A DNA stretch of 64,000 nucleotides from Candidatus Hydrogenedentota bacterium (GTDB lineage: Bacteria > Hydrogenedentota > Hydrogenedentia > Hydrogenedentales > SLHB01). The notes below the pieces were generated by a model that saw only the letters and a program-made list of their open reading frames with translations, had not been told where the DNA came from and made no database searches. Positions 5,800-35,920 of the stretch are shown piece after piece (within the stretch, counting starts at the first letter, position 1; each line of letters starts with the position of its first letter). The position numbers and the translations under genes were made by a program. The DNA is taken from contig CAVUWV010000001.1 in assembly GCA_963745075.1 (NCBI GenBank), forward strand, positions 352,001 to 416,000, written 5' to 3'.

Positions 5800-5998
5800 G
5801 TCCTTGCTGTCCTTGCTGTCCTTGTTGTCCTTGCTCGTCCCTGCTGTCCCTGCTGTCTCTGCCGTCCCTGCCGTCCCTGCCGTCCCTGCCGTCCCTGCCG
5901 TCCCTGCCGTCCCTGCTGTCCGTGACTGTCCGTGACTGTCCGTGACTGTCCGTGTGTGTCCGTGTGTGTCCGTGTACTGTCCGTGTGTGTCCGTGTGT
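5800..5998. repeat. Compound tandem array: 13 GTC(C)YTGCY ~9-mers then 8 GTCCGTGNNN ~10-mers
   Basis: Counted directly from the sequence. Confidence 0.95.
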
Positions 5999-13668: not shown

Positions 13669-14559
13669 TCACGGGAAATTCGGAACCCCGTCCGTAGCGG
13701 CGGATTTCGACACCATGAAGAATTTCGAACCGTCGGGTTGCGGATAATTTGCGTACTCCACGTGGCCGTCCATGAACAGCACGTTCGCGCCGAGCGGCGA
13801 ATGATTGATCTCGCGAAACATCGGCTGTCCGTAGTCGGTTCGCACGGTGTCCCACCAAACGGCGATCTCCGACTCACCGCGCGCGGTGGCGGCCGGATTG
13901 TTGATATCCGAAACCGTAAACCGGTTGATGCCGTCGCGCAGGTAGTAGATGGTGATCGCTTCGCCGGTGCTCGGCAGGGTGACGTGCTGATCGTCGTAGC
14001 GGGTATCCAGGTTCACGCTGTCCGTGGTCAGGTTGTCGAGCAGCAATCCATGCAGCGCCATATCCAGCGGCTCCTTGACGAAGCGCGGTTCAATCATGAA
14101 ACCCCAATAGACATACGAGTAATCCGCCAGCGCGGGATATTGATCCATGGTCTTGACCGGATTGTCATAGATATCCTCGTGCCAACCGGGGCCAACGGGG
14201 CGAAACATCAGCCAGTAATCATATAACCGGCTGTATTCTGGGTCCGACGGGCAAACGATGAGGTGGTAGTCCGTGAGATATTCGGGGTACAGGATCGCCC
14301 CGTCAAAGCTCGACCAACATTCCTTCACCGGACTGAACGGCAAGTGATACGGGATCATTCGCGGCACCCACTCGCCGTGGTGTTCGTCGGCAAACATGCG
14401 AAAGATTTGCCCCATCTGCCGTTCGTTATTGGCGCACGAAGCCCGCCGCGCCGTTTCGCGGGCTCGGCCCAGTGCCGGCAGCAGCAGCGCCGCGAGGATC
14501 GAAATGATCGCGATCACCACCAGCACTTCGACCAGCGTGAATCCCCGATTGGTCCGCAT
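13669..14559 (-). CDS. Prepilin-type N-terminal cleavage / H-X9-DG domain protein (DUF1559-like)
   Basis: [36 protein letters not shown]-terminal [15 protein letters not shown]. Confidence 0.93.
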
Positions 14560-16907: not shown

Positions 16908-16931
16908 AGGGCGGGTTCTAGAACCCGCCCT
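16908..16931. repeat. Perfect 24-bp palindrome between convergent genes (REP or terminator)
   Basis: AGGGCGGGTTCT|AGAACCCGCCCT. Confidence 0.8.
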
Positions 16932-17021
16932 TCTTGTTGATGCGGCTTGGACACGGCAGTCTGCTCCGCTGGTCTTGCTGGGCCGGAACACACCGTGCAC
17001 GGCTCCTCCGCAGGCTTCCGT

Positions 17022-17804
17022 TCAACTGAGCAGATATTTGGTCAGGTGGTCCCACGCGTTCGTCTGCGCCACACGCATGATGAGGAAACTCCAGACGACA
17101 AGTACGGCGTATCCCGTGGCGTAGTATCGGTCCCAGGACCGCGTCAGCAACCGCTTGACGACAAGGAACACCAATCCCAAAACCAGCACGCCAAAGAACG
17201 GACCGAACAGGGCGCCGCACAGGGTGCCCGCGTAGAGGTTTCTAATCGCTTCGACGCGGTCCGTGGCGGCGGGGATGGCAGCCATGGTGGCCAACAGCAT
17301 CATGGGGCGATGGATCTTCACCCGCTTTCGGTTCCACACGCCGACGAAGACGAAAGCGCCGAAAAGCAGGATGCTGAAGAGCGGGACCGCCAGAAAACGG
17401 TTGGGTTCGAGATTCCACAGTTTGAGGTCCGGCGGGTTGACGCTCGCCGCCGCAAAGGCCACTTTGAGGCCCGCCAGCACGATGCCGGCCGCGAGCACCG
17501 CCCCAACACGGCCGGCCATCATATGAACGCGCCGGTTCCCGGTGACCACCAGGAGCGGCTGGGCCAGGAACAACAGCATCCAAGCCGTCATCGCGATCCC
17601 GTGGAGGATCAGCCAGATTCGAATGGGCGGAGTGAGTTCCCGATGGGGGAATGCCTTGCCGTGCAGATAAAACTGCTGGAAACCCAGGAACATGATCGTC
17701 AGGAGCAGCAAGGCCGCTCCCGTGTAAAAGTAACGTCCGAAATCGATCTTTGCATGCGTCTTCGGTTGGGGTTCGTCCAATGATAAGGTCTGGCTCGTGC
17801 CCAT
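17022..17804 (-). CDS. Hypothetical multi-pass membrane protein
   Basis: About 7 hydrophobic segments with spaced His residues (LHG, VH..AG, IHRPMM); RBS GAGG upstream. Confidence 0.8.
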   Translation of the reverse strand: MGTSQTLSLDEPQPKTHAKIDFGRYFYTGAALLLLTIMFLGFQQFYLHGKAFPHRELTPPIRIWLILHGIAMTAWMLLFLAQPLLVVTGNRRVHMMAGRVGAVLAAGIVLAGLKVAFAAASVNPPDLKLWNLEPNRFLAVPLFSILLFGAFVFVGVWNRKRVKIHRPMMLLATMAAIPAATDRVEAIRNLYAGTLCGALFGPFFGVLVLGLVFLVVKRLLTRSWDRYYATGYAVLVVWSFLIMRVAQTNAWDHLTKYLLS

Positions 17805-17940
17805 GATTTGACAGTTCCTCTTTGTTTGAATGTGGCGCTCAACGCGCTCGATCCCCGGACCGGATCGGGGATCGATTCACCAGAAGCGCAGATAGTACTC
17901 CAAGTCATTTGAGAAAAGGTAGCGGAATCTCAAGCGTTTC

Positions 17941-18020
17941 GTCCGTCTCGTCCCTGCCATCCCCGTCCCTGCTGCCCCTGCTGTCCGTGTAGGTCCGTGT
18001 AGGTCCGTGTAGGTCAAGTC
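17941..18020. repeat. GTCCCTGCY 9-mers then three GTCCGTGTAG 10-mers
   Basis: Same bipartite layout as 5800-5998. Confidence 0.9.
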
Positions 18021-18089
18021 CGCGTTCCATTGTTTCATTTCCCTCCGCACTGCAACGCCCCGGCCTATCTTTATAAGGAGATTTCCGCC

Positions 18090-19672
18090 ATGACAAACCA
18101 CCCCAAACGCCCCCGCCCTCAAAAACGAACGAATCTCGGCACCCCCTGCGCCCGCACCTGGACCAACGACTGGATCGCCACCGTCAACGCCAAAGAAGCC
18201 GGAACTCAACCACCGAATCTGCGGCGCCCGCCTCCCCGACGCCACGCCCGTTGCACCAATGCTTCCGACCACCCCTCCGGCCGCTGCCCATTCCACGGCG
18301 GATTCGACCTCACCGGCGCACCCCCCGGCAACCGCAACCACGTAATCCACGGCCTCTACTCCCGCCGCCTGAGACCCTGCACCCCCAACTGCCCCCACTG
18401 GGAAAATTGCCCCCTCGCCAACCGTCATCCTCATCCTCTCGAACGCGGGGAACACGGGGACCCATCTTCTCTCCAGCCTTCTACAAATCCACAATCGGAA
18501 GACCCATCTTCGCAATCCCAAACGTCCGATCCGACCGATCGGTGCGATCCGTCCCATTCTTCCCAACCCCCAAACCCCACACCCCCGCAACAGGATCGTC
18601 ATCCTCGCGACAGCGGGGACCCATCTTCCCAATCCGATCCGTCCAATTCTTCCGATCCGTCCTATAGGTCCCATACGTCCTATAGGTCCTATCCCCCCAA
18701 CGCCACGCCGACGCAATCACCGCCCACCTGCCCCTACCAACTCGCCGAATACAACACCGTCCTCACCGACGCCCTTGCCGTCGTCGAATCCCAGCCCCAC
18801 CCCAACCCCATGGGCATCCACGCCGCCCACAACGTCGCCATGCTCCAAGTCCTCGTCAACGCCGCCACCGCCCACTTAGCGCAAGCCCCAAACCTCGGGT
18901 CTTCCTCTGAAGCATGGCCTTCCCCCCCTGGGCACGGGCGTCCCGCCCGTGTTCTTCCTCTTCATCCGCGACATGGGCTTCAAGCCCATGTCCTCCCGAA
19001 AACCTTAACCCCAACACCATCCTCGCCTTCACCCGCCTCATGCGCGAGTACCGCCACACACTAAAACTTCTCCAAACACCGGGGTACACCCCCTTGAACC
19101 GTCACAATTCCGCGGGTGCACCCCCCTCCCCCGACGGCATCCTCCGCCACGTCCAACGCACCCAACACGACACCGGTCTCGACCCCGATTCCATCGCCGC
19201 CGCTCAACTCGAGCCCCAAACCCCCGAGACCCACGCCAAAGCCTACATCCAACGCGCCGCCCTCGCCGGAGGACAAGGTCGCGACGTGGAAATGTGCGAA
19301 GCCTTCGATAACGCCGCCCTCATCGACGAACCCTACGCCGAATCCGAACGCGATCACGTCCTGGCCAGCTACCGCCCCGCAAAACAATCCGTCTCCCAAG
19401 AACTCGCCGAACTCATCCTCGGCAACCTTCATCTGCCGCCCCGACCCACAACCCACGAACAGAACCCCGACACAACCAAGCCCAACACCGACCACCCAAC
19501 AAACGAAGAATCCGACGATGTGCTCCAACACTTCCTCGACCTCATAAGAGAAGGGAAAATGCCCCCCGAAGCCTTCCCCATCGGCTCCCCCCTCCGAGCC
19601 CACGTTGAAGCCATCTACACCGGCCCACCCACCACCACAACCAAGCCCACCGGCGAAGCCGGCTCCGAGTAG
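18090..19672 (+). CDS. HGGxSTG-type Zn-finger protein (small-terminase-like), interrupted by repeat insertions and frameshifts
   Basis: RBS AAGGAG; GRCPFHGGFDLTGAPPGNRNHVIHGLYS motif; ICGAR lies in the +1 frame at 18217-18231; C-terminal part continues in the 18914-19672 frame. Confidence 0.72.
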
Positions 19673-19690
19673 TCCTTATCCGTCCATATC

Positions 19691-19740
19691 GTCCGTGTAA
19701 GTCCGTGTAAGTCCGTGTAAGTCCGTGTAAGTCCGTGTAG
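19691..19740. repeat. Five tandem GTCCGTGTA(A/G) 10-mers
   Basis: Counted directly. Confidence 0.95.
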
Positions 19741-19747
19741 CCCAGTT

Positions 19748-19827
19748 GTAGCGCAGGCGTCCCCGCCTGCAATTCCTGAGACAGAACCCCAAAGAATGCA
19801 GGCGGGGACGCCTGCGCTACATCCGCC
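19748..19827. repeat. GTAG-type REP doublet
   Basis: Arms match 7641-7713; spacer is the reverse-complement homolog of that doublet's spacer. Confidence 0.88.
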
Positions 19828-19959
19828 GCTCAACCCCGGAGTGAACCCCCAAAAATGCTGCGCACCCCCAACCACCTATCGTCCTCCCCCTACTACCCAC
19901 CAAAGCTCAATAACGCAAGCAGGCTTGCCTCGCCGAAGCTGACAAGCGAAGGCGGGTCC

Positions 19960-21490
19960 ATGTGTCCGTCCATCCCATCCCGCACCCGCTTCGCCCGCCA
20001 CTACCTCCGCGACCGCCACGGTTCCCCCTGGGCGCCTTGGCCGTATCAGTCTTTGTCCTTGGAATCCCTCGCACCTCGGAAGGTGCATTGCGATGGGCGG
20101 GATGTGGGGAAAACGTCGGAGATCGAGATCGTGGCGGCGTGGGCGTCGGTGATGCGGCCGAATTCGCAGATGTTGATTGCGACGCAGTGTGAGAATCATT
20201 TGTTTCCGTTGATGGACCGGATCGTGCGGGTGTTTGAAAGCGATTCATGGAAAGAGGGACAGACCGGTCTCGACGGAATGAAAGAGGGCAATGAAAGAGG
20301 GACATGGGCGTGGAAAAGAGGGACAGACACGTCTCGCTTCGCTCGCTTGCGTCAGTCCCTCTTTTCCGGTCGCTGGGGTCAGTCCCTTGGTGGAGGTGAA
20401 GCGGACGCCGTCGTGGTGTTTGCGGTTTGCGAACGGGTTTGTGTTGTGGGGGCGGATTGCGGGGCCGCACGGGATGAATTTCCAGGGGCTGCACGTGGAT
20501 TGGCAGATTGTCGACGAGGCGCAGGAGATGACGGATGCGGCGTGGGAGGAGATGTTTCAGGCGTTGAACGCCGGCGGGTGGCGCTGGGTGTATGGGGTGC
20601 CGAACGGGTTGCGGAACACGTTTCACCGGATGACGACGGACCCGGACGCGGAGCAGTACAACTGGCCGTCGTCGTCGAATCCGGCGTGGTCGGCGGAGAA
20701 GGAGGCGGAGTTGGCGCGGCTGTATGGCGGCAAGGATTCGCCGGGGTACATCCATCGGGTGCTGGGGCAACACGGTTCGCCGGCGTATGCGGTGTTCGAT
20801 CTGAATGCGTATCTCGCGTGTGTGGACGGGGGGCTGGAGTGGTTCGAGGCGTCGCTGGGGGAGGACGATCCCTTCGAGGCACCGTCGGGCGTGGCGAAGG
20901 GCACCCATTATCTGGGCTGCGACCTGGGGTACGTGCGCGATCCGTCGGAGTTTGTGATCTACCGGAGTGCGCCGCCGGATTTGGTGAACGTGGGGCGGGT
21001 ACACTTGCACGGGGTCAATTATCATCGGCAGCAGGGCATCATCGAGGAGTTGGATCGCGCGTATGACTTCCGGGCGATCGGCATCGATGCGGGGAACAAC
21101 GGGAGCGCGGTGGCGCATAACCTGAAGAACATCGACGTGGACTGGCATGAGAAGGTCATGGCGTTCGAGTTCGGGGGCGTATGCGAAGCGGGGTCGTTTC
21201 CGGACGGGTCGCCGGACCGGCGTCCGACGAAGCTGTTCATGACGGAGCTGTTGCAGCGGCGGATGGCGGACCGGACGATTGTGTTTCCGCCGCCGGCGGA
21301 TCGGGAGTCGCAGTACGCGGGGCACACGTATACCGCCGGGATGCGGGGGCAGGTCCTGTTCGACAAGGGGAACGACCACATTATCGACGCGGATCGGTGC
21401 GCGGTGCTGGCGCATTACCTCGACACGCAGGAGGTGGGGGCGCAGAACGTCGGTGGGTACTATCCCCGTCTCCGGTTGGAGGCGTTTTAG
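19960..21490 (+). CDS. terL: Phage terminase large subunit-like protein, split by a REP insertion / +1 frameshift at ~20245-20385
   Basis: PWPYQ adenine-binding motif, Walker A GRDVGKT, Walker B WQIVDEAQ, motif III-like GVPNG, nuclease acidic motifs LGCDLG, IGIDAG, NDHIIDADR. Confidence 0.82.
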
Positions 21491-21520
21491 TGTTGCAAGT
21501 TGGCGAATCCCTTACAATTC

Positions 21521-21585
21521 AATCGAAATCGAAATCGAAATCGAATTGCAAAGGCAACGTGTCTGCGATTTCGATCCCGATTTCG
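21521..21585. repeat. (AATCGA)x4 hexamer run with partial inverted counterpart
   Basis: AATCGA x4 at 21521-21544; CGATTTCGATCCCGATTTCG at 21566-21585. Confidence 0.8.
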
Positions 21586-21633
21586 GCAGCGGCGAGACTG
21601 GCATGCTGCGCAGTCAGGAGCGCGCGGCGCAAC

Positions 21634-21879
21634 TTACGTATCGGACGTGACATTTTCGCGCCAGCGCGCTTCAATCGTGTCAGCGGAAAGATCGGCCCCG
21701 CACCGCCACTCGACATAGTAGCTCCCGTTGCGAACCTGGGAAAACTCGACCCAGTTTCGCAACGGCACAAAGGCCGGCGATTCGAAATACGGGCGAACAT
21801 CGAAGATGCCGGAGCGGCCGTCTTCGGCGACCACATGCAGCGTGCCGTTTTCCTGTGGAGTGACCGTTGCGATTCTCAC
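21634..21879 (-). CDS. DUF2442 protein (putative antitoxin)
   Basis: DGRSGIFDVRPY...F.PL....F..V......VEW..GADL..DTI; GTG start overlaps the upstream TGA. Confidence 0.85.
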   Translation of the reverse strand: MRIATVTPQENGTLHVVAEDGRSGIFDVRPYFESPAFVPLRNWVEFSQVRNGSYYVEWRCGADLSADTIEARWRENVTSDT

Positions 21880-22148
21880 TGATCCAATCCTCGAATAGGC
21901 AAGGGATTCTGGCCGTTTACAGCCAGTTCCCAATCCGCCATCAAGTCTTCCTGATGAATCTCGATCCAGGCGACCACCAGTTTATGCTTCTTCGGCGGCA
22001 GACTACCTGCCAACACGCTTCCGTCCGCAATCGAATACACGGCGACCTCGCCCTGATAGTCCGCATGAATGTGTGGCAAGTGATGTCTGTCTGTGTCGTG
22101 AAAGAACATTCGGATCAAAATGCCGTAGAACATCGATATCGTAGGCAT
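21876..22148 (-). CDS. DUF4160 protein (putative HicA-like toxin)
   Basis: MPTISMFYGILIRMFF.D...H..PHIHA.Y...LV.AW.EIH..DL..DW.LA...I..L. Confidence 0.92.
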   Translation of the reverse strand: MPTISMFYGILIRMFFHDTDRHHLPHIHADYQGEVAVYSIADGSVLAGSLPPKKHKLVVAWIEIHQEDLMADWELAVNGQNPLPIRGLDQ

Positions 22149-22325
22149 GCGACCTGCTCCTGTTTCTCACGGCGCCCAGAGATGACCGATGTATCCAGTT
22201 TTCTCGGAGCAACGGCCATCCATAGCTTACGCAGTCATTATTCCACGTCAATCGCGCCCCGGTCTACCTCGTCCGTGGTAGTTTCCACGGGGGCCGCCTC
22301 CCCTACTTGCGCCGCCGTCTCGCCG

Positions 22326-35159: not shown

Positions 35160-35272
35160 TTCAATCTAACCGAAATTTCGTCTGCAAGGCAGAAGAATTC
35201 TTTGTCAACGCCGATTCCGGCTTTCCCCTCCACGCCGGCCGACGCTGACCTCGTTAACAGGAGGTAGTCGTT

Positions 35273-35920
35273 ATGAAGAAGTTTATAGGCGCTCTAGTTG
35301 TCATTTGCATAGTGGTTGTTCTGGGGCTCGTCGTCTTCGTTTATTCCGGCGTGTACAACATTGCGGCGACATCGCACCACACCGCGCCGGTTTACTGGAT
35401 GGTGAACACGATGACGGATCGGTCGATCGAGTCGCACGCGCAGGGGATCACGGCGCCGAATCTCGAGGGCGACGATACGCTACGGCTGGGGCTGGAGCAT
35501 TACAACGAGATGTGCGTCACGTGTCACGGTGCGCCCGGAGTCTCACCCGCGGAACTTGCGAGCGGAATGTATCCGCTTCCGCCCATCCTCTCGGCGGAAC
35601 CGACGGACATGACGTCATCCGAACTCTATTGGGTCATCAAGAACGGCATCAAGATGACGGGCATGCCGGCCTTCGGACCGACCCACAGCGATGACAAGAT
35701 TTGGGCCATGGTGTCGGTGGTGGAGAAGTTGCCGCAGTGGAGCCCGGAGGAGTTCGCGCAGCAGGTGAAATCCGTCGGTTTGGAGATGCCCCAAACGGGC
35801 GATGAAGACGAATCCGCGGAGCACCATCACGACGAAACCGCGGAAGGGAATGCCGGTTCGGCGACTGCACGAGCAGGAAGCCGAGCACCCGGGAACCAGT
35901 CAAGGCAATGGGTAAAATGA
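35273..35920 (+). CDS. Membrane-anchored monoheme cytochrome c with His/acidic tail
   Basis: CVTCH, GIKMTGMPAF; tail EDESAEHHHDE. Confidence 0.9.
   Translation: MKKFIGALVVICIVVVLGLVVFVYSGVYNIAATSHHTAPVYWMVNTMTDRSIESHAQGITAPNLEGDDTLRLGLEHYNEMCVTCHGAPGVSPAELASGMYPLPPILSAEPTDMTSSELYWVIKNGIKMTGMPAFGPTHSDDKIWAMVSVVEKLPQWSPEEFAQQVKSVGLEMPQTGDEDESAEHHHDETAEGNAGSATARAGSRAPGNQSRQWVK

What the first reader, a model, noticed from the sequence alone, without database searches (positions are those of the whole stretch)
17900..21600. Orphan terminase pair sitting on an extreme strand-skew inversion that looks like a replication origin
Seen: the top strand is extremely C/A-rich at ~18.0-20.03 kb (19441-19500: 31 C, 6 G, 0 T) and G/T-rich from ~20.08 kb (20401-20460: 28 G, 10 C), although both genes are on +. 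The flip lies inside terL, just before Walker A, where codons change from CGC/CTC/ACC to CGG/TTG/GTG/GCG. By eye a weaker skew of the same polarity extends across the window, and most genes point away from this site (mostly minus at 0.2-17.8 kb, mostly plus at 29-61 kb; exceptions at 21.6-27.9 kb). I see no dnaA, DnaA-box cluster, portal, capsid, tail or integrase. Known: C-to-G skew switches with divergent genes mark bidirectional origins, and terminases cut DNA at or near their own genes. Inference: a domesticated TerS/TerL-like module may cut or open its own locus and seed repeated local replication (compare Bartonella run-off replication feeding its GTA), or act as a dispersed GTA-type packaging module. 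This is the best candidate here for an undescribed system.
Basis: partly seen in the sequence, partly recalled or inferred. Interest (0 to 1): 0.9.

Follow-up and report, generated by a model that had tools for sequence, protein, structure and literature searches.

The report
Mobile terminase module marking skew switches
A small jumping DNA module built from phage DNA-packaging genes sits exactly where the strand composition of this uncultured bacterium's chromosome flips in the way it does at a replication origin, and its relatives do the same at dozens of other sites, which suggests that such modules start DNA synthesis locally.

Summary
GC skew is -0.33 to -0.50 at 18.0-20.0 kb and +0.13 to +0.45 at 20.1-21.4 kb, with the window minimum at 20077, 15 bp before the Walker A codons. 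This juxtaposition is unique in the 6.8-Mb genome.

It is not the chromosomal origin. It is a 5.4-kb insertion (16.95-22.32 kb), absent at the same site in two same-genus genomes. It carries an HGG-motif TerS-like gene, a second paralogue of a large terminase (TerL fold confirmed) and phased GTCC repeats. Both genes are frame-broken here. A normal-composition core TerL is conserved in 37 of 41 related Hydrogenedentota genomes.

The main result is comparative:
- At 35 HGG loci in 15 genomes, flanking host DNA switches from negative to positive skew (28 of 35).
- The step is at least 0.09 in 66% of these loci, against 2% of control genes.
- The step is larger where the module is present (3 of 3 sites).
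- It arose on the module-bearing branch (p=7e-5).
- It is set by position, not inherited with the gene.

Best reading (about 0.4): the module is a mobile site from which DNA synthesis repeatedly starts outward. No read-depth test was possible.

The parts
16949..22324 (.). Inserted segment as a whole, lying between the host GDPD gene's terminator hairpin (16908-16931) and the host ABC-transporter gene.
   Evidence: Homology to the colinear DNA of G003:C9 and G005:C3 stops at about 16938-16948 and resumes at 22325. The same site holds 0.59 kb in G005 and 1.6 kb in G003, without HGG or TerL2.
17022..17804 (-). 260-aa predicted membrane protein that travels with the module.
   Evidence: 84% nucleotide identity to copies next to HGG at G003:C1:297205-297969 and next to TerL2 at G005:C475:736-1500. 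No Pfam or PHROG family.
17983..18015 (+). Upstream phased repeat, GTCCGTGTAG x3.3.
   Evidence: Tandem Repeats Finder. The same unit flanks the C27 copy.
18090..19672 (+). HGG-motif, TerS-like gene, broken into two frames (18090 to about 18900, and 18992-19672). It has a low-complexity repeat insert at about 18420-18700 and a hairpin insert at about 18900-18990. The coding strand is C/A-rich.
   Evidence: ORFs. Intact 474-490-aa orthologues or paralogues exist at L003 and L020. HGG_STG domain E=0.002 (below cut-off) and TerS_not_xtmA E=0.022. 16 of 25 family members hit PHROG TerS phrog_9231. GC3 skew is -0.63 to -0.75.
19672..19739 (+). Downstream phased GTCC repeats (GTCCATATC x2.4, GTCCGTGTAA x4.9).
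   Evidence: They belong to a genome-wide polar repeat family with 49 sites, against 1 in the reversed-sequence control.
19747..19829 (.). Palindromic REP-like repeat.
   Evidence: Dozens of 75-94% identical copies in both orientations across the genome.
19957..20235 (+). TerL2 N-part (Walker A at 20092-20115). Its first 30 or so homologous codons are C3-rich.
   Evidence: tblastn to core TerL residues 28-117 gives 67% identity. GC3 skew is -0.50, then +0.48 and +0.83 per 30 codons.
20020..20080 (.). Switch point of strand asymmetry (cumulative G-C minimum at 20077).
   Evidence: Colinear loci of G003, G004 and G015 show the same intragenic switch.
20236..20392 (.). Hairpin-repeat insertion (GAAAGAGGGACAG units) that splits TerL2 into two frames.
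   Evidence: The C24 paralogue is split at the same place. The intact core and G003 genes lack the insertion.
20393..21490 (+). TerL2 C-part (Walker B and RNase H-type nuclease). The coding strand is G/T-rich. An ATG at 20291 opens this frame.
   Evidence: PHROG phrog_2 2.8e-15. 71% amino-acid identity to core TerL. dN/dS is 0.09 against both the C24 and G003 copies. GC3 skew is +0.42.
21491..22324 (.). Remainder of the insertion, of unknown content (AATCGA x4.2 at 21521-21545).
   Evidence: Skew here is near 0.

Best explanation
The window holds one copy of a dispersed, mobile module of uncultured Hydrogenedentota. The module has three parts: a fast-evolving HGG-motif protein related to phage small terminases, phased GTCC repeats at its ends, and in some loci a second paralogue of a large terminase (TerL2).

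Shown here:
- The skew inversion marks a discrete switch point in strand-asymmetric substitution at the HGG 3' end / TerL2 5' end.
- The switch has the polarity of diverging replication forks.
- The switch is set by position in the locus, not carried by the genes.
- Host DNA on both sides takes on the same polarity.
- That polarity is stronger where the module is present.

Inferred:
- The site is a recurrent start point of outward DNA synthesis in both directions.
- The most likely trigger is that the terminase-like pair nicks or opens its own pac-like repeats, giving 3' ends that prime strand displacement. Usually this runs 1-2 kb, which would explain the extreme local skew. Sometimes full forks form and run tens of kb, which would explain the weak regional step.

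On this reading the module is a mobile accessory origin-like element. It is not oriC.
For: 1. Association across genomes.
- At 35 HGG loci in 15 genomes, with 8-kb flanks, downstream-minus-upstream skew is positive in 28 of 35, mean +0.104.
- The origin-type pattern (upstream negative, downstream positive) occurs in 22 of 35 loci; the opposite pattern occurs in 4 of 35.
- The step is at least 0.09 in 66% of loci, against 2.1% of 3097 control genes of G000 (Mann-Whitney p=1.5e-10).
- The per-genome mean is positive in 13 of 15 genomes.
- The averaged profile is a flat step out to 8 kb on each side.
- Divergent intergenic sites do not show it: 2.5% reach 0.09.

2. Insertion versus module-free site.
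- The flanks are colinear and contiguous in G003 and G005, which lack the module here.
- Over aligned blocks, G000 has left -0.038/-0.061 and right +0.037. The relatives have left +0.006/-0.019 and right +0.005/+0.008.
- The reciprocal sites behave the same way. At L020, the module-bearing left flank is -0.149 against +0.010 without the module. At L064, the module-bearing right flank is +0.079 against -0.001.

3. Polarised substitutions on the G000 branch.
- On the left flank, G>C outnumbers C>G 46 to 27, with net G-C of -57.
- On the right flank, C>G outnumbers G>C 70 to 29, with net G-C of +100.
- Fisher test of left against right gives p=6.8e-5.
- The G003 branch shows no such contrast (p=0.46) and the G005 branch only a trend (p=0.084).

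4. Position, not gene, sets the skew.
- The first 30-45 codons of TerL2 have GC3 skew -0.43 to -0.62 where the HGG gene lies directly upstream in the same orientation as TerL2 (colinear loci: G003, G004, G015, window).
- The same codons have +0.64 and +0.71 where HGG and TerL2 point away from each other, 3-5 kb apart (divergent loci: G021, G109).
- Skew decays along TerL2 over about 1 kb in colinear loci.
- In divergent loci skew falls from +0.4 to -0.1 between the two genes, then jumps again.

5. The genes are a functional pair.
- The TerL fold is confirmed.
- HGG and TerL2 are fused into one 946-aa ORF in G015.
- The TerL2 C-part is under purifying selection, dN/dS 0.09.
Against: - No read-depth, fork-direction or nick data could be obtained.
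- No helicase, primase or initiator gene lies in the insertion. No DnaA box is present.
- Gene orientation around HGG loci points away in only 54% of coding bases. This is not significant: 22 of 35 loci, p=0.13.
- 7 of 35 loci show no positive step, including this genome's own C27 copy.
- 11 of the 14 origin-type switches in G000 have no HGG gene.
- The left-arm drift is also seen, more weakly, on the module-less G005 branch. The long G002 branch shows the opposite sign (p=0.003), which is unexplained.
- The extreme skew ends sharply at the element's edges. This also fits composition carried along by the element.
- HGG and TerL2 are frame-broken in this copy, so any activity here would need intact copies acting in trans.
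- The asymmetry is dominated by G<->C transversions, which is not the classic deamination pattern of replication skew.
- The relatives are MAGs and are kin, so the statistics overstate independence.
Confidence: 0.42

Rival explanations
1. The composition is carried by the element. On this view the extreme skew is made during the element's mobile life, for example through a single-stranded or rolling-circle intermediate of one fixed strand. It is then simply brought to each new site. The flank steps would reflect where such elements land or survive, not anything they do.
For: - The extreme skew begins and ends sharply at the element's edges.
- All four G000 copies share C-rich coding strands, whatever their orientation or location.
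- The family is multicopy, often lies at contig ends, and is non-syntenic.
- Polar GTCC repeats occur genome-wide, and a RAYT-like ORF (recognised by eye) sits in L020.
- Another small element with a nicking-type protein, reported by the earlier scan at about C1:141 kb, lies in a local skew trough of -0.26 to -0.44.
Against: - Orthologous TerL2 N-terminal codons have opposite GC3 skew depending on locus arrangement.
- Orthologous host flanks differ between module-bearing and module-free sites, and the asymmetry arose on the module-bearing branch.
- HGG members at 30-55% identity keep extreme skew, so it must be continually renewed. Some have the opposite sign.
- A preference for landing at pre-existing switches is not seen at the three module-free sites: their steps are about 0, +0.01 and +0.075.
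Confidence: 0.2
2. Transcription or R-loop driven asymmetry. On this view strong divergent transcription starts at the switch point: antisense through HGG and sense through TerL2. It exposes the G-rich non-template strands and drives local mutation bias, possibly with R-loop-primed synthesis.
For: - The skews are tied to transcription units at the 1-2 kb scale. In the divergent loci each gene has its own up-jump.
- The G-rich non-template strand of TerL2 is the kind of sequence that favours R-loops (established knowledge, not tested here).
Against: - The step in host flanks extends at least 8 kb and up to about 50 kb, across genes of both orientations.
- In colinear loci the switch lies 45-60 codons inside TerL2, an odd place for its promoter.
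- The promoter scan found nothing above the shuffled expectation: 1 site found against 1.3 expected.
- No other genes of the genome, whatever their expression, reach such values.
Confidence: 0.1
3. GTA-like or lateral-transduction-like packaging. On this view the terminase pair starts headful packaging at these sites. Recurrent transfer of the neighbouring DNA through a single-stranded uptake step then imprints the origin-type asymmetry in recipients.
For: - The module has a real TerL fold and a TerS-like partner with pac-like phased repeats at the gene's end.
- The strand polarity expected from 3'-first uptake of pac-anchored fragments matches the observed pattern. This is my own reasoning, not a tool result.
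Against: - No portal (PF04860) was found, and only one HK97-type capsid match, on another contig, in this 90%-complete genome.
- Packaging from a pac site is normally one-directional, whereas the step is symmetric.
- No particle genes are linked in any locus that was read.
Confidence: 0.07
4. Rearrangement or assembly artefact. On this view the switch is a misjoin, or an inversion breakpoint at a repeated element.
For: - The module is repeated and the genome is a mosaic of skew domains with both polarities: 14 origin-type and 7 terminus-type switches.
- There are inversions relative to G003 nearby, at C1:348-360 kb.
Against: - Both flanks are colinear and adjacent in G003, G004 and G005, so there is no breakpoint at the module.
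- The same intragenic switch occurs in intact TerL2 genes of other genomes.
- Inversions would give both polarities equally, whereas HGG loci show the origin-type pattern 22 times and the opposite pattern 4 times.
Confidence: 0.05
5. It is the chromosomal replication origin (oriC).
For: The switch has origin polarity, and the window's cumulative skew minimum lies at 20077.
Against: - There are several origin-type switches on the same contig and 14 in the genome.
- The best DnaA match is on C36, and the strongest DnaA-box cluster is at C10:407.5-409.3 kb. The module has none.
- The segment is an insertion absent from close relatives.
Confidence: 0.03

Closest known systems
Phage large terminase TerL (T4 gp17, HK97, Sf6 gp2, D6E, P74-26/G20c)
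   Same: - It has the two-domain fold. All top-50 Foldseek matches are TerL, the best at E=3e-15, and the nuclease domain reaches TM 0.76.
- Walker A, Walker B and the nuclease aspartates are invariant.
- A TerS-like gene lies directly upstream, or is fused to it.
   Different: - No Pfam or NCBIfam family matches.
- No portal or capsid partner was found.
- One paralogue is conserved in 37 of 41 genomes of a bacterial order at 63-81% identity, next to dapA/dapB in G000.
- The window's paralogue is mobile and split in two frames.
Run-off replication origin of Bartonella, linked to its gene transfer agent (Berglund et al. 2009, PMC2697382; passages read)
   Same: It is a phage-derived extra start site for replication inside a bacterial chromosome, proposed to act bidirectionally on neighbouring host genes.
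   Different: - In Bartonella there is a single conserved locus with a phage helicase at the amplification peak, shown by array coverage.
- Here there is no replication gene. There are many mobile copies per genome, and the module is built from packaging genes.
- The evidence here is evolutionary (skew and substitutions), not coverage.
Extra replication origins captured from mobile elements in archaeal chromosomes, each next to its initiator gene (recalled; only a search listing was seen)
   Same: There are several origin-polarity skew switches per chromosome, each next to a copy of one multicopy gene family.
   Different: - These are bacteria, not archaea.
- The neighbouring gene is TerS-like, not Orc/Cdc6 or Cdt1-like.
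- Origin activity is unproven.
Skew 'N-domains' of mammalian genomes: sharp upward jumps at initiation zones with gradual decline between them (recalled; no paper read)
   Same: - Regional skew is a sawtooth at the 25-kb scale, with 8 sharp up-jumps and 1 down-jump.
- There is a miniature sawtooth between the two up-jump sites of the divergent loci.
   Different: - The scale and organism differ.
- At the 8-kb scale both polarities occur, 14 against 7.
- The cause here is unknown.
IS200/IS605-REP/RAYT single-strand elements with orientation tied to replication direction (recalled)
   Same: - The GTCC phased repeats are strongly polar with respect to local skew.
- RAYT-like ORFs lie in related loci (recognised by eye).
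   Different: - The HGG protein has no detected HUH or Y1 transposase family match.
- GTCC repeats away from HGG genes do not mark switches: 6 origin-type and 6 terminus-type among 40 sites.

Membership tests
Large terminase (TerL) | N-terminal ASCE ATPase with Walker A and Walker B / catalytic Glu | tested here: met
   GRDVGKT and VDWQIVDEAQ are invariant in 24 sequences. Both motifs are present in the window pieces. The PDB profile hits the P74-26 TerL ATPase domain at E=5.4e-4.
Large terminase (TerL) | C-terminal RNase H-like nuclease with conserved acidic residues | tested here: met
   D292, D347, D447 and D449 are invariant. The nuclease domain aligns to G20c TerL nuclease with TM 0.76. 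The motifs CDLG, IDAGN and IDADR are kept in the window copy.
Large terminase (TerL) | Whole-protein fold like solved TerL | tested here: met
   The model has pLDDT 76. All top-50 Foldseek PDB hits are large terminases, with E down to 3e-15. The model is of the intact G003 orthologue, not the broken window copy.
Large terminase (TerL) | Works with portal and capsid genes of a virus or GTA | tested here: not met
   No structural genes lie in the insertion or its flanks. In G000 there is no PF04860 portal and only one PF05065 capsid match, on C14. Only two families were searched, and the genome is 90% complete.
Large terminase (TerL) | Single intact reading frame | tested here: not met
   The window and C24 copies are split by a repeat insertion into an N-part and a C-part in different frames. 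The copies in G003, G004, G015, G021 and G109 are intact.
Small terminase (TerS) | Sequence membership in a TerS family | tested here: inconclusive
   NCBIfam TerS_not_xtmA gives E=0.022 and HGG_STG gives 17.8 bits against a cut-off of 29. PHROG TerS phrog_9231 is hit by 16 of 25 members, best 6e-6, over about 40 residues only.
Small terminase (TerS) | Encoded directly upstream of, and acting with, TerL | tested here: met
   HGG lies directly upstream of TerL2, in the same orientation, in the window, G003 and G015. The two are fused in one ORF in G015. However, 29 of 35 HGG loci have no adjacent TerL2. Joint action was not tested.
Small terminase (TerS) | TerS fold (DNA-binding N-domain, helical oligomerisation core, beta-barrel) | tested here: inconclusive
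   The model has pLDDT 82. Foldseek gives no hit at E<=0.001, and the VIA wide search gives a best Z of 7.0, to generic helical hairpins.
Bacterial chromosomal origin (oriC) | Cluster of DnaA boxes | tested here: not met
   There are 0 boxes (TTATCCACA, up to 1 mismatch) in C1:368.5-374.8 kb. The best cluster is at C10:407.5-409.3 kb. The box consensus is recalled from other phyla.
Bacterial chromosomal origin (oriC) | Unique global skew minimum, usually near dnaA/dnaN | tested here: not met
   There are several origin-type switches on C1 and 14 in the genome. The best DnaA match is at C36:53979-54917.
Bacterial chromosomal origin (oriC) | Skew switch of negative-to-positive polarity | tested here: met
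Phage-derived secondary origin (Bartonella run-off replication type) | Local copy-number peak centred on the site | not testable with these tools
   Only one public run holds 5% of the sampled words, and it is kept as contigs.
Phage-derived secondary origin (Bartonella run-off replication type) | Phage replication gene (helicase/primase) at the peak | tested here: not met
   The insertion encodes only the 260-aa protein, HGG and TerL2. None matches a replication family.

The most novel reading that the evidence does not exclude
Hydrogenedentota chromosomes carry several mobile initiation sites for DNA synthesis, derived from terminase genes. On this reading a TerS-like protein recognises phased repeats at the end of its own gene, and a TerL-type nuclease opens them. 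Forks or displacement tracts then run outward. The elements therefore spread like transposons and re-set replication direction, strand composition and codon usage of neighbouring host genes. That would make this a bacterial lineage with dispersed accessory origins, and would give packaging enzymes a new, non-packaging job.
Probability: 0.3. Interest if true: 0.95.

Novelty: new variant of a known kind. Interest (0 to 1): 0.8.

Why it matters
Bacterial chromosomes are taught as having one origin. Extra, phage-derived start sites are known from very few cases. Here a small mobile module made of DNA-packaging genes coincides with origin-polarity switches of strand composition at dozens of independent sites in a whole order of uncultured bacteria. 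The host DNA next to it appears to acquire that polarity after insertion.

If the cause is local initiation of DNA synthesis, three things follow:
- It would show a new way in which selfish elements reshape replication, mutation bias and codon usage.
- It would show a new cellular use of terminases.
- It would give a testable sequence signature (HGG gene, GTCC repeats and a skew step) for finding such sites in metagenomes.

Even if the cause is different, two points remain unexplained: the position-dependent GC3 skew of up to +/-0.7-1.0, and the order-wide conserved core terminase with no capsid genes.

Tried and rejected
- **oriC reading.** Rejected.
- **Misjoin or inversion breakpoint.** Rejected because the flanks are colinear in three relatives.
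- **Preference for divergent intergenic regions.** Rejected, since such sites show no step.
- **Gene-orientation bias as independent support.** Tried and uninformative: 54% of coding bases point away, p=0.13, and the genome-wide correlation of orientation with skew is only rho 0.19.
- **Double-strand break with resection or repair synthesis as the cause.** Rejected on polarity by reasoning: it predicts the opposite sign.
- **Recombination between inverted HGG copies.** Rejected, because it predicts switches inside HGG and both polarities.
- **HGG fold search.** No convincing match.
- **Pfam and NCBIfam on all module proteins.** No family above cut-off.
- **Rfam on 16.5-22.5 kb.** No match at E<=0.1.
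- **Promoter and terminator scan.** Not above shuffles for promoters.
- **Public reads.** One run holds 5% of the words, as contigs, so there was no depth, end or spanning-read test.
- **Widening to the phylum.** This added only 2 genomes and no new HGG-bearing genome.
- **A second polarised-substitution test at the L064 site.** Abandoned, because G005 shares that insertion and the outgroup pieces were too short.
- **Literature.** Full-text searches for 'Hydrogenedentes' with 'GC skew' found 0 papers. 'HGGxSTG' found 0 papers. 'terminase' with 'Planctomycetes' and 'conserved' listed 52 papers, none relevant among the 15 shown. I therefore found no description of this in print within that library.

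Full report
**The observation.**
- The two 60-base counts are correct.
- GC skew in 200-bp windows is -0.33 to -0.50 from 18.0 to 19.7 kb. It changes sign between 19.9 and 20.1 kb and is +0.13 to +0.45 up to 21.4 kb. AT skew mirrors it.
- The cumulative G-C minimum of the window is at 20077, 15 bases before the Walker A codons at 20092-20115.
- Genome-wide, 1-kb skew has sd 0.070.
- A 2-kb stretch at or beyond 0.3 abutting an opposite 1.3-kb stretch at or beyond 0.2 occurs at 5 of 66,903 positions, all here.
- The change is largely at codon third positions. C3 is 0.57-0.63 and G3 is 0.09-0.13 in the left gene. G3 is 0.61, C3 0.25 and A3 0.01 in the right gene.
- Among 3201 long ORFs (mean GC3 skew -0.076, sd 0.135), the left-gene family gives the four most negative values and this right gene gives the most positive.

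**What the genes are.** Pfam and NCBIfam give no family above cut-off.

The right gene is a real large terminase:
- PHROG phrog_2 gives 2.8e-15 for the window's C-part and 1.9e-20 for the intact G003 orthologue.
- A PDB profile search hits TerL ATPase and nuclease domains.
- An AlphaFold model of the G003 orthologue (pLDDT 76) matches only large terminases in its top 50 Foldseek hits, with E down to 3e-15.
- The ATPase and nuclease motifs are invariant.

The left gene encodes a cysteine-rich protein with an RC-x-FHGG...GAP-x-GNRN-x-x-HGLYSR motif:
- It matches TerS families only weakly and locally.
- Its model (pLDDT 82) has no convincing solved relative.
- I call it HGG, or TerS-like.

In this window both genes are frame-broken. 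HGG breaks at about 18.9-19.0 kb. terL is broken by a 157-nt hairpin-repeat insertion at 20236-20392. The terL C-part is nevertheless under strong purifying selection: dN/dS is 0.09 against the equally split C24 copy and against G003. So either a split gene is in use or the breaks are assembly errors. I could not tell which.

**Two terminase lineages.**
- An intact 488-aa TerL with an upstream 175-aa gene lies on contig C8 next to dapA/dapB and has ordinary composition, GC3 skew +0.09.
- Its orthologues occur in 37 of 41 related genomes, in 13 families of the order, at 63-81% identity. There are 471 clusters, nearly all from Candidatus Hydrogenedentes MAGs and all named hypothetical.
- The window's gene belongs to a separate, well-supported clade, TerL2 (100/100).
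- TerL2 also occurs on C24 of this genome and in G003, G004, G005, G015, G021 and G109.
- G000 has one HK97-capsid match on another contig and no PF04860 portal.

**The module is a mobile insertion.**
- The window's flanks are ordinary host genes.
- They are colinear and adjacent in three same-genus genomes. Homology stops at about 16948 and resumes at 22325. G005 has 0.59 kb there and G003 has 1.6 kb, without HGG or TerL2.
- Conversely, G003's module at L020 sits between katG/fur and genes that map to C10:13-45 kb in G000, where there is no module.
- HGG is multicopy. It is found in 32 of 133 genomes of the order, with up to 14 matches per genome, often at contig ends. The phylum set gives 32 of 135.
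- The 260-aa gene at 17022-17804 travels with the module.
- This also rules out a misjoin at 20.05 kb.

**Not oriC.**
- Contig C1 changes skew sign many times.
- A 25-kb detector finds 9 switches in the genome, 8 of origin polarity.
- An 8-kb detector finds 14 origin-type and 7 terminus-type switches.
- The best DnaA match is on C36. The module has no DnaA box, and the best box cluster is on C10.

**The comparative result.** I took every HGG locus from the hit list that had usable flanks. The choice was by rank and contig length, not by skew. I then measured GC skew in 8-kb flanks.
- Of 35 loci in 15 genomes with at least 3 kb on both sides, the downstream-minus-upstream difference is positive in 28, with mean +0.104.
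- The origin-type pattern (upstream negative, downstream positive) holds in 22 loci and the opposite pattern in 4.
- The step is at least 0.09 in 66% of loci, against 2.1% of 3097 control genes of G000 (control mean -0.0015, sd 0.042; p=1.5e-10).
- The per-genome mean is positive in 13 of 15 genomes. One pair of loci (L056 and L063) is the same insertion, and kin are not independent.
- The mean profile is a flat step: -0.04 to -0.07 upstream and +0.04 to +0.06 downstream, out to 8 kb.
- The step holds for 23 of 29 loci without an adjacent TerL2, and for HGG members whose own skew is neutral or positive.
- Divergent intergenic sites in general show nothing.
- In G000, 3 of the 4 HGG loci with assembled flanks are among the 14 origin-type switches. 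The C27 copy is not.
- The other 11 origin-type switches have ordinary host genes and no common element.

**Direction of cause.**
- Over aligned orthologous blocks, G000 (module present) has left -0.038/-0.061 and right +0.037. G003 and G005 (module absent) have left +0.006/-0.019 and right +0.005/+0.008.
- At L020 the module-bearing genome has left -0.149, against +0.010 in G000.
- At L064 the module-bearing genome has right +0.079, against -0.001 in G000.
- The step is therefore larger with the module at 3 of 3 sites.
- Substitutions were polarised with G003, G005 and G002. On the G000 terminal branch the top strand loses G on the left (G>C 46, C>G 27; net -57 over 3517 sites). It gains G on the right (C>G 70, G>C 29; A>G 34, T>C 15; net +100 over 4158 sites). 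Fisher p=6.8e-5.
- The short G003 and G005 branches are not significant (p=0.46 and 0.084, with a left-arm trend of the same sign in G005).
- The long G002 branch, which contains the root, has the opposite sign (p=0.003). I cannot explain this.

**Position, not gene identity, sets the skew.**
- Where the HGG gene lies directly upstream of TerL2 in the same orientation (colinear loci: window, G003, G004, G015), the first 30-45 TerL2 codons have GC3 skew -0.43 to -0.62. The gene then jumps to as much as +1.0 and decays to about 0 over 1 kb.
- Where HGG and TerL2 point away from each other, 3-5 kb apart (divergent loci: G021, G109), the same codons have +0.64 and +0.71, and the whole gene stays at +0.5 to +1.0.
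- In those divergent loci, and on C24, skew starts at +0.4 beside the HGG 3' end. It falls to about -0.1 and jumps again at the TerL2 5' end, a miniature sawtooth.
- HGG relatives at 30-55% identity keep extreme values. A few have the opposite sign.
- The asymmetry is therefore being renewed in place.

**Mechanism.** The polarity is that of diverging forks, with the displaced or lagging-template strand becoming G/T-rich.
- Break-and-resection repair predicts the opposite sign.
- Inversions predict both signs and breakpoints, which are not seen.
- Transcription cannot reach 8-50 kb across genes of both orientations.
- The reading I think most likely (about 0.4) is that the HGG 3' end / TerL2 5' end is a recurrent start of outward DNA synthesis. 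The terminase-like pair would act on its own phased GTCC repeats.
- Supporting the idea that the two proteins work together, HGG and TerL2 are fused in one ORF in G015.
- This mechanism is inferred. No nicking, binding, amplification or fork data exist.

**Evidence against the best reading.**
- There are no replication genes in the insertion.
- The gene-orientation signal is weak (54%).
- 7 of 35 loci show no positive step.
- Most origin-type switches in G000 lack HGG.
- This copy is frame-broken.
- The substitution spectrum is driven by G<->C transversions.
- The extreme skew has sharp edges at the element's ends.

**The GTCC repeats.**
- Units such as GTCCGTGTAR (10 bp) and CGTCCATAT (9 bp) flank HGG ORFs in many loci.
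- They also form a genome-wide family, with 49 sites against 1 in a reversed-sequence control.
- The 40 sites away from HGG do not mark switches.
- They are, however, strongly polar. The GTCC strand lies on the locally C-rich strand (mean flank skew -0.044, p=1e-8), although the unit itself is G/T-rich.

**Literature.** I found no paper linking Hydrogenedentes with GC skew, and none mentioning HGGxSTG, in the held library. For the Bartonella run-off replication comparison I read passages of PMC2697382. They describe a phage-derived extra origin near a helicase and do not mention skew. The comparisons with archaeal captured origins, mammalian N-domains and IS200/REP orientation bias are from recall.

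**Earlier scan notes.** The notes named the phylum, which searches confirm from source names. They also reported a 1.7-kb element with a Rep_trans-like protein near C1:141 kb, which lies in a local skew trough. I did not test that element.

Noticed in passing
L004:8006-9472 (-) = G000:C8:332009-333472, with an upstream 175-aa gene at L004:9564-10091 (-): A core TerL-like gene of normal composition lies next to dapA/dapB. It is conserved in 37 of 41 genomes of the order at 63-81% identity, forms 471 clusters all named hypothetical, and has no capsid or portal partner. It looks like a long-domesticated terminase of unknown cellular role.
   Followed up: partly
L024:266-3106 (-) (G015:C5): The HGG (TerS-like) protein and TerL2 are fused into a single 946-aa open reading frame.
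   Followed up: partly
Genome-wide, for example window 5800-5971, 18659-18689 and 19672-19734; C8:412719-412782; C27:168657-168738: There is a family of phased GTCC-N5/6 tandem repeats: 49 sites, against 1 in the reversed-sequence control. Its orientation follows local skew almost without exception (p=1e-8), opposite to what the unit's own composition would predict.
   Followed up: partly
window 19747-19829 and dozens of sites genome-wide: An 80-bp palindromic REP-like element is present in both orientations. RAYT/IS200-like ORFs (recognised by eye, not run against a family library) lie at L020:8906-9358 and in the G003:C9 79.5-81.1 kb gap.
   Followed up: no
window 20236-20392 and L001 about 13813-13960: A hairpin-forming GAAAGAGGGACAG repeat insertion splits TerL2 at the same codon in both G000 copies. 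The indels inside it differ, yet the downstream part stays under purifying selection. It could be a split gene, a recoding signal or an assembly error.
   Followed up: partly
G000 contigs C8:398-416 kb, C8:464-477 kb and C18:40-55 kb: These host regions have unusually strong regional skew: top-strand GC3 skew is 0.3-0.55 in genes of both orientations. The genome's skew is a mosaic, with 14 origin-type and 7 terminus-type switches at the 8-kb scale.
   Followed up: partly
G000:C1:140.75-142 kb: A local skew trough (-0.26 to -0.44) lies where the earlier scan reported a 1.7-kb insertion sequence with a Rep_trans-like protein. This may be a second example of a nicking-type element with extreme strand skew.
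   Followed up: no
G000 contig C22 (30.5 kb; L005/L006): This contig has 47-56% GC, against 59% for the genome. Nearly all its ORFs are on one strand, and skew is -0.2 to -0.35 at 13-20 kb. It may be foreign DNA or another replicon.
   Followed up: no
L001:10895-11905 (-) (G000:C24): A 336-aa ORF at about 50% GC lies between the HGG and TerL2 genes of the C24 module. It interrupts the skewed tract and looks like a recent insertion.
   Followed up: no
G005:C3 about 35218-35805 (site orthologous to window 16949-22324): The same intergenic hotspot holds a different small cargo in G005: an acetyltransferase-like ORF, judged by eye only. In G003 it holds a RAYT-like ORF plus repeats. The site has therefore been hit repeatedly by insertions.
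   Followed up: no
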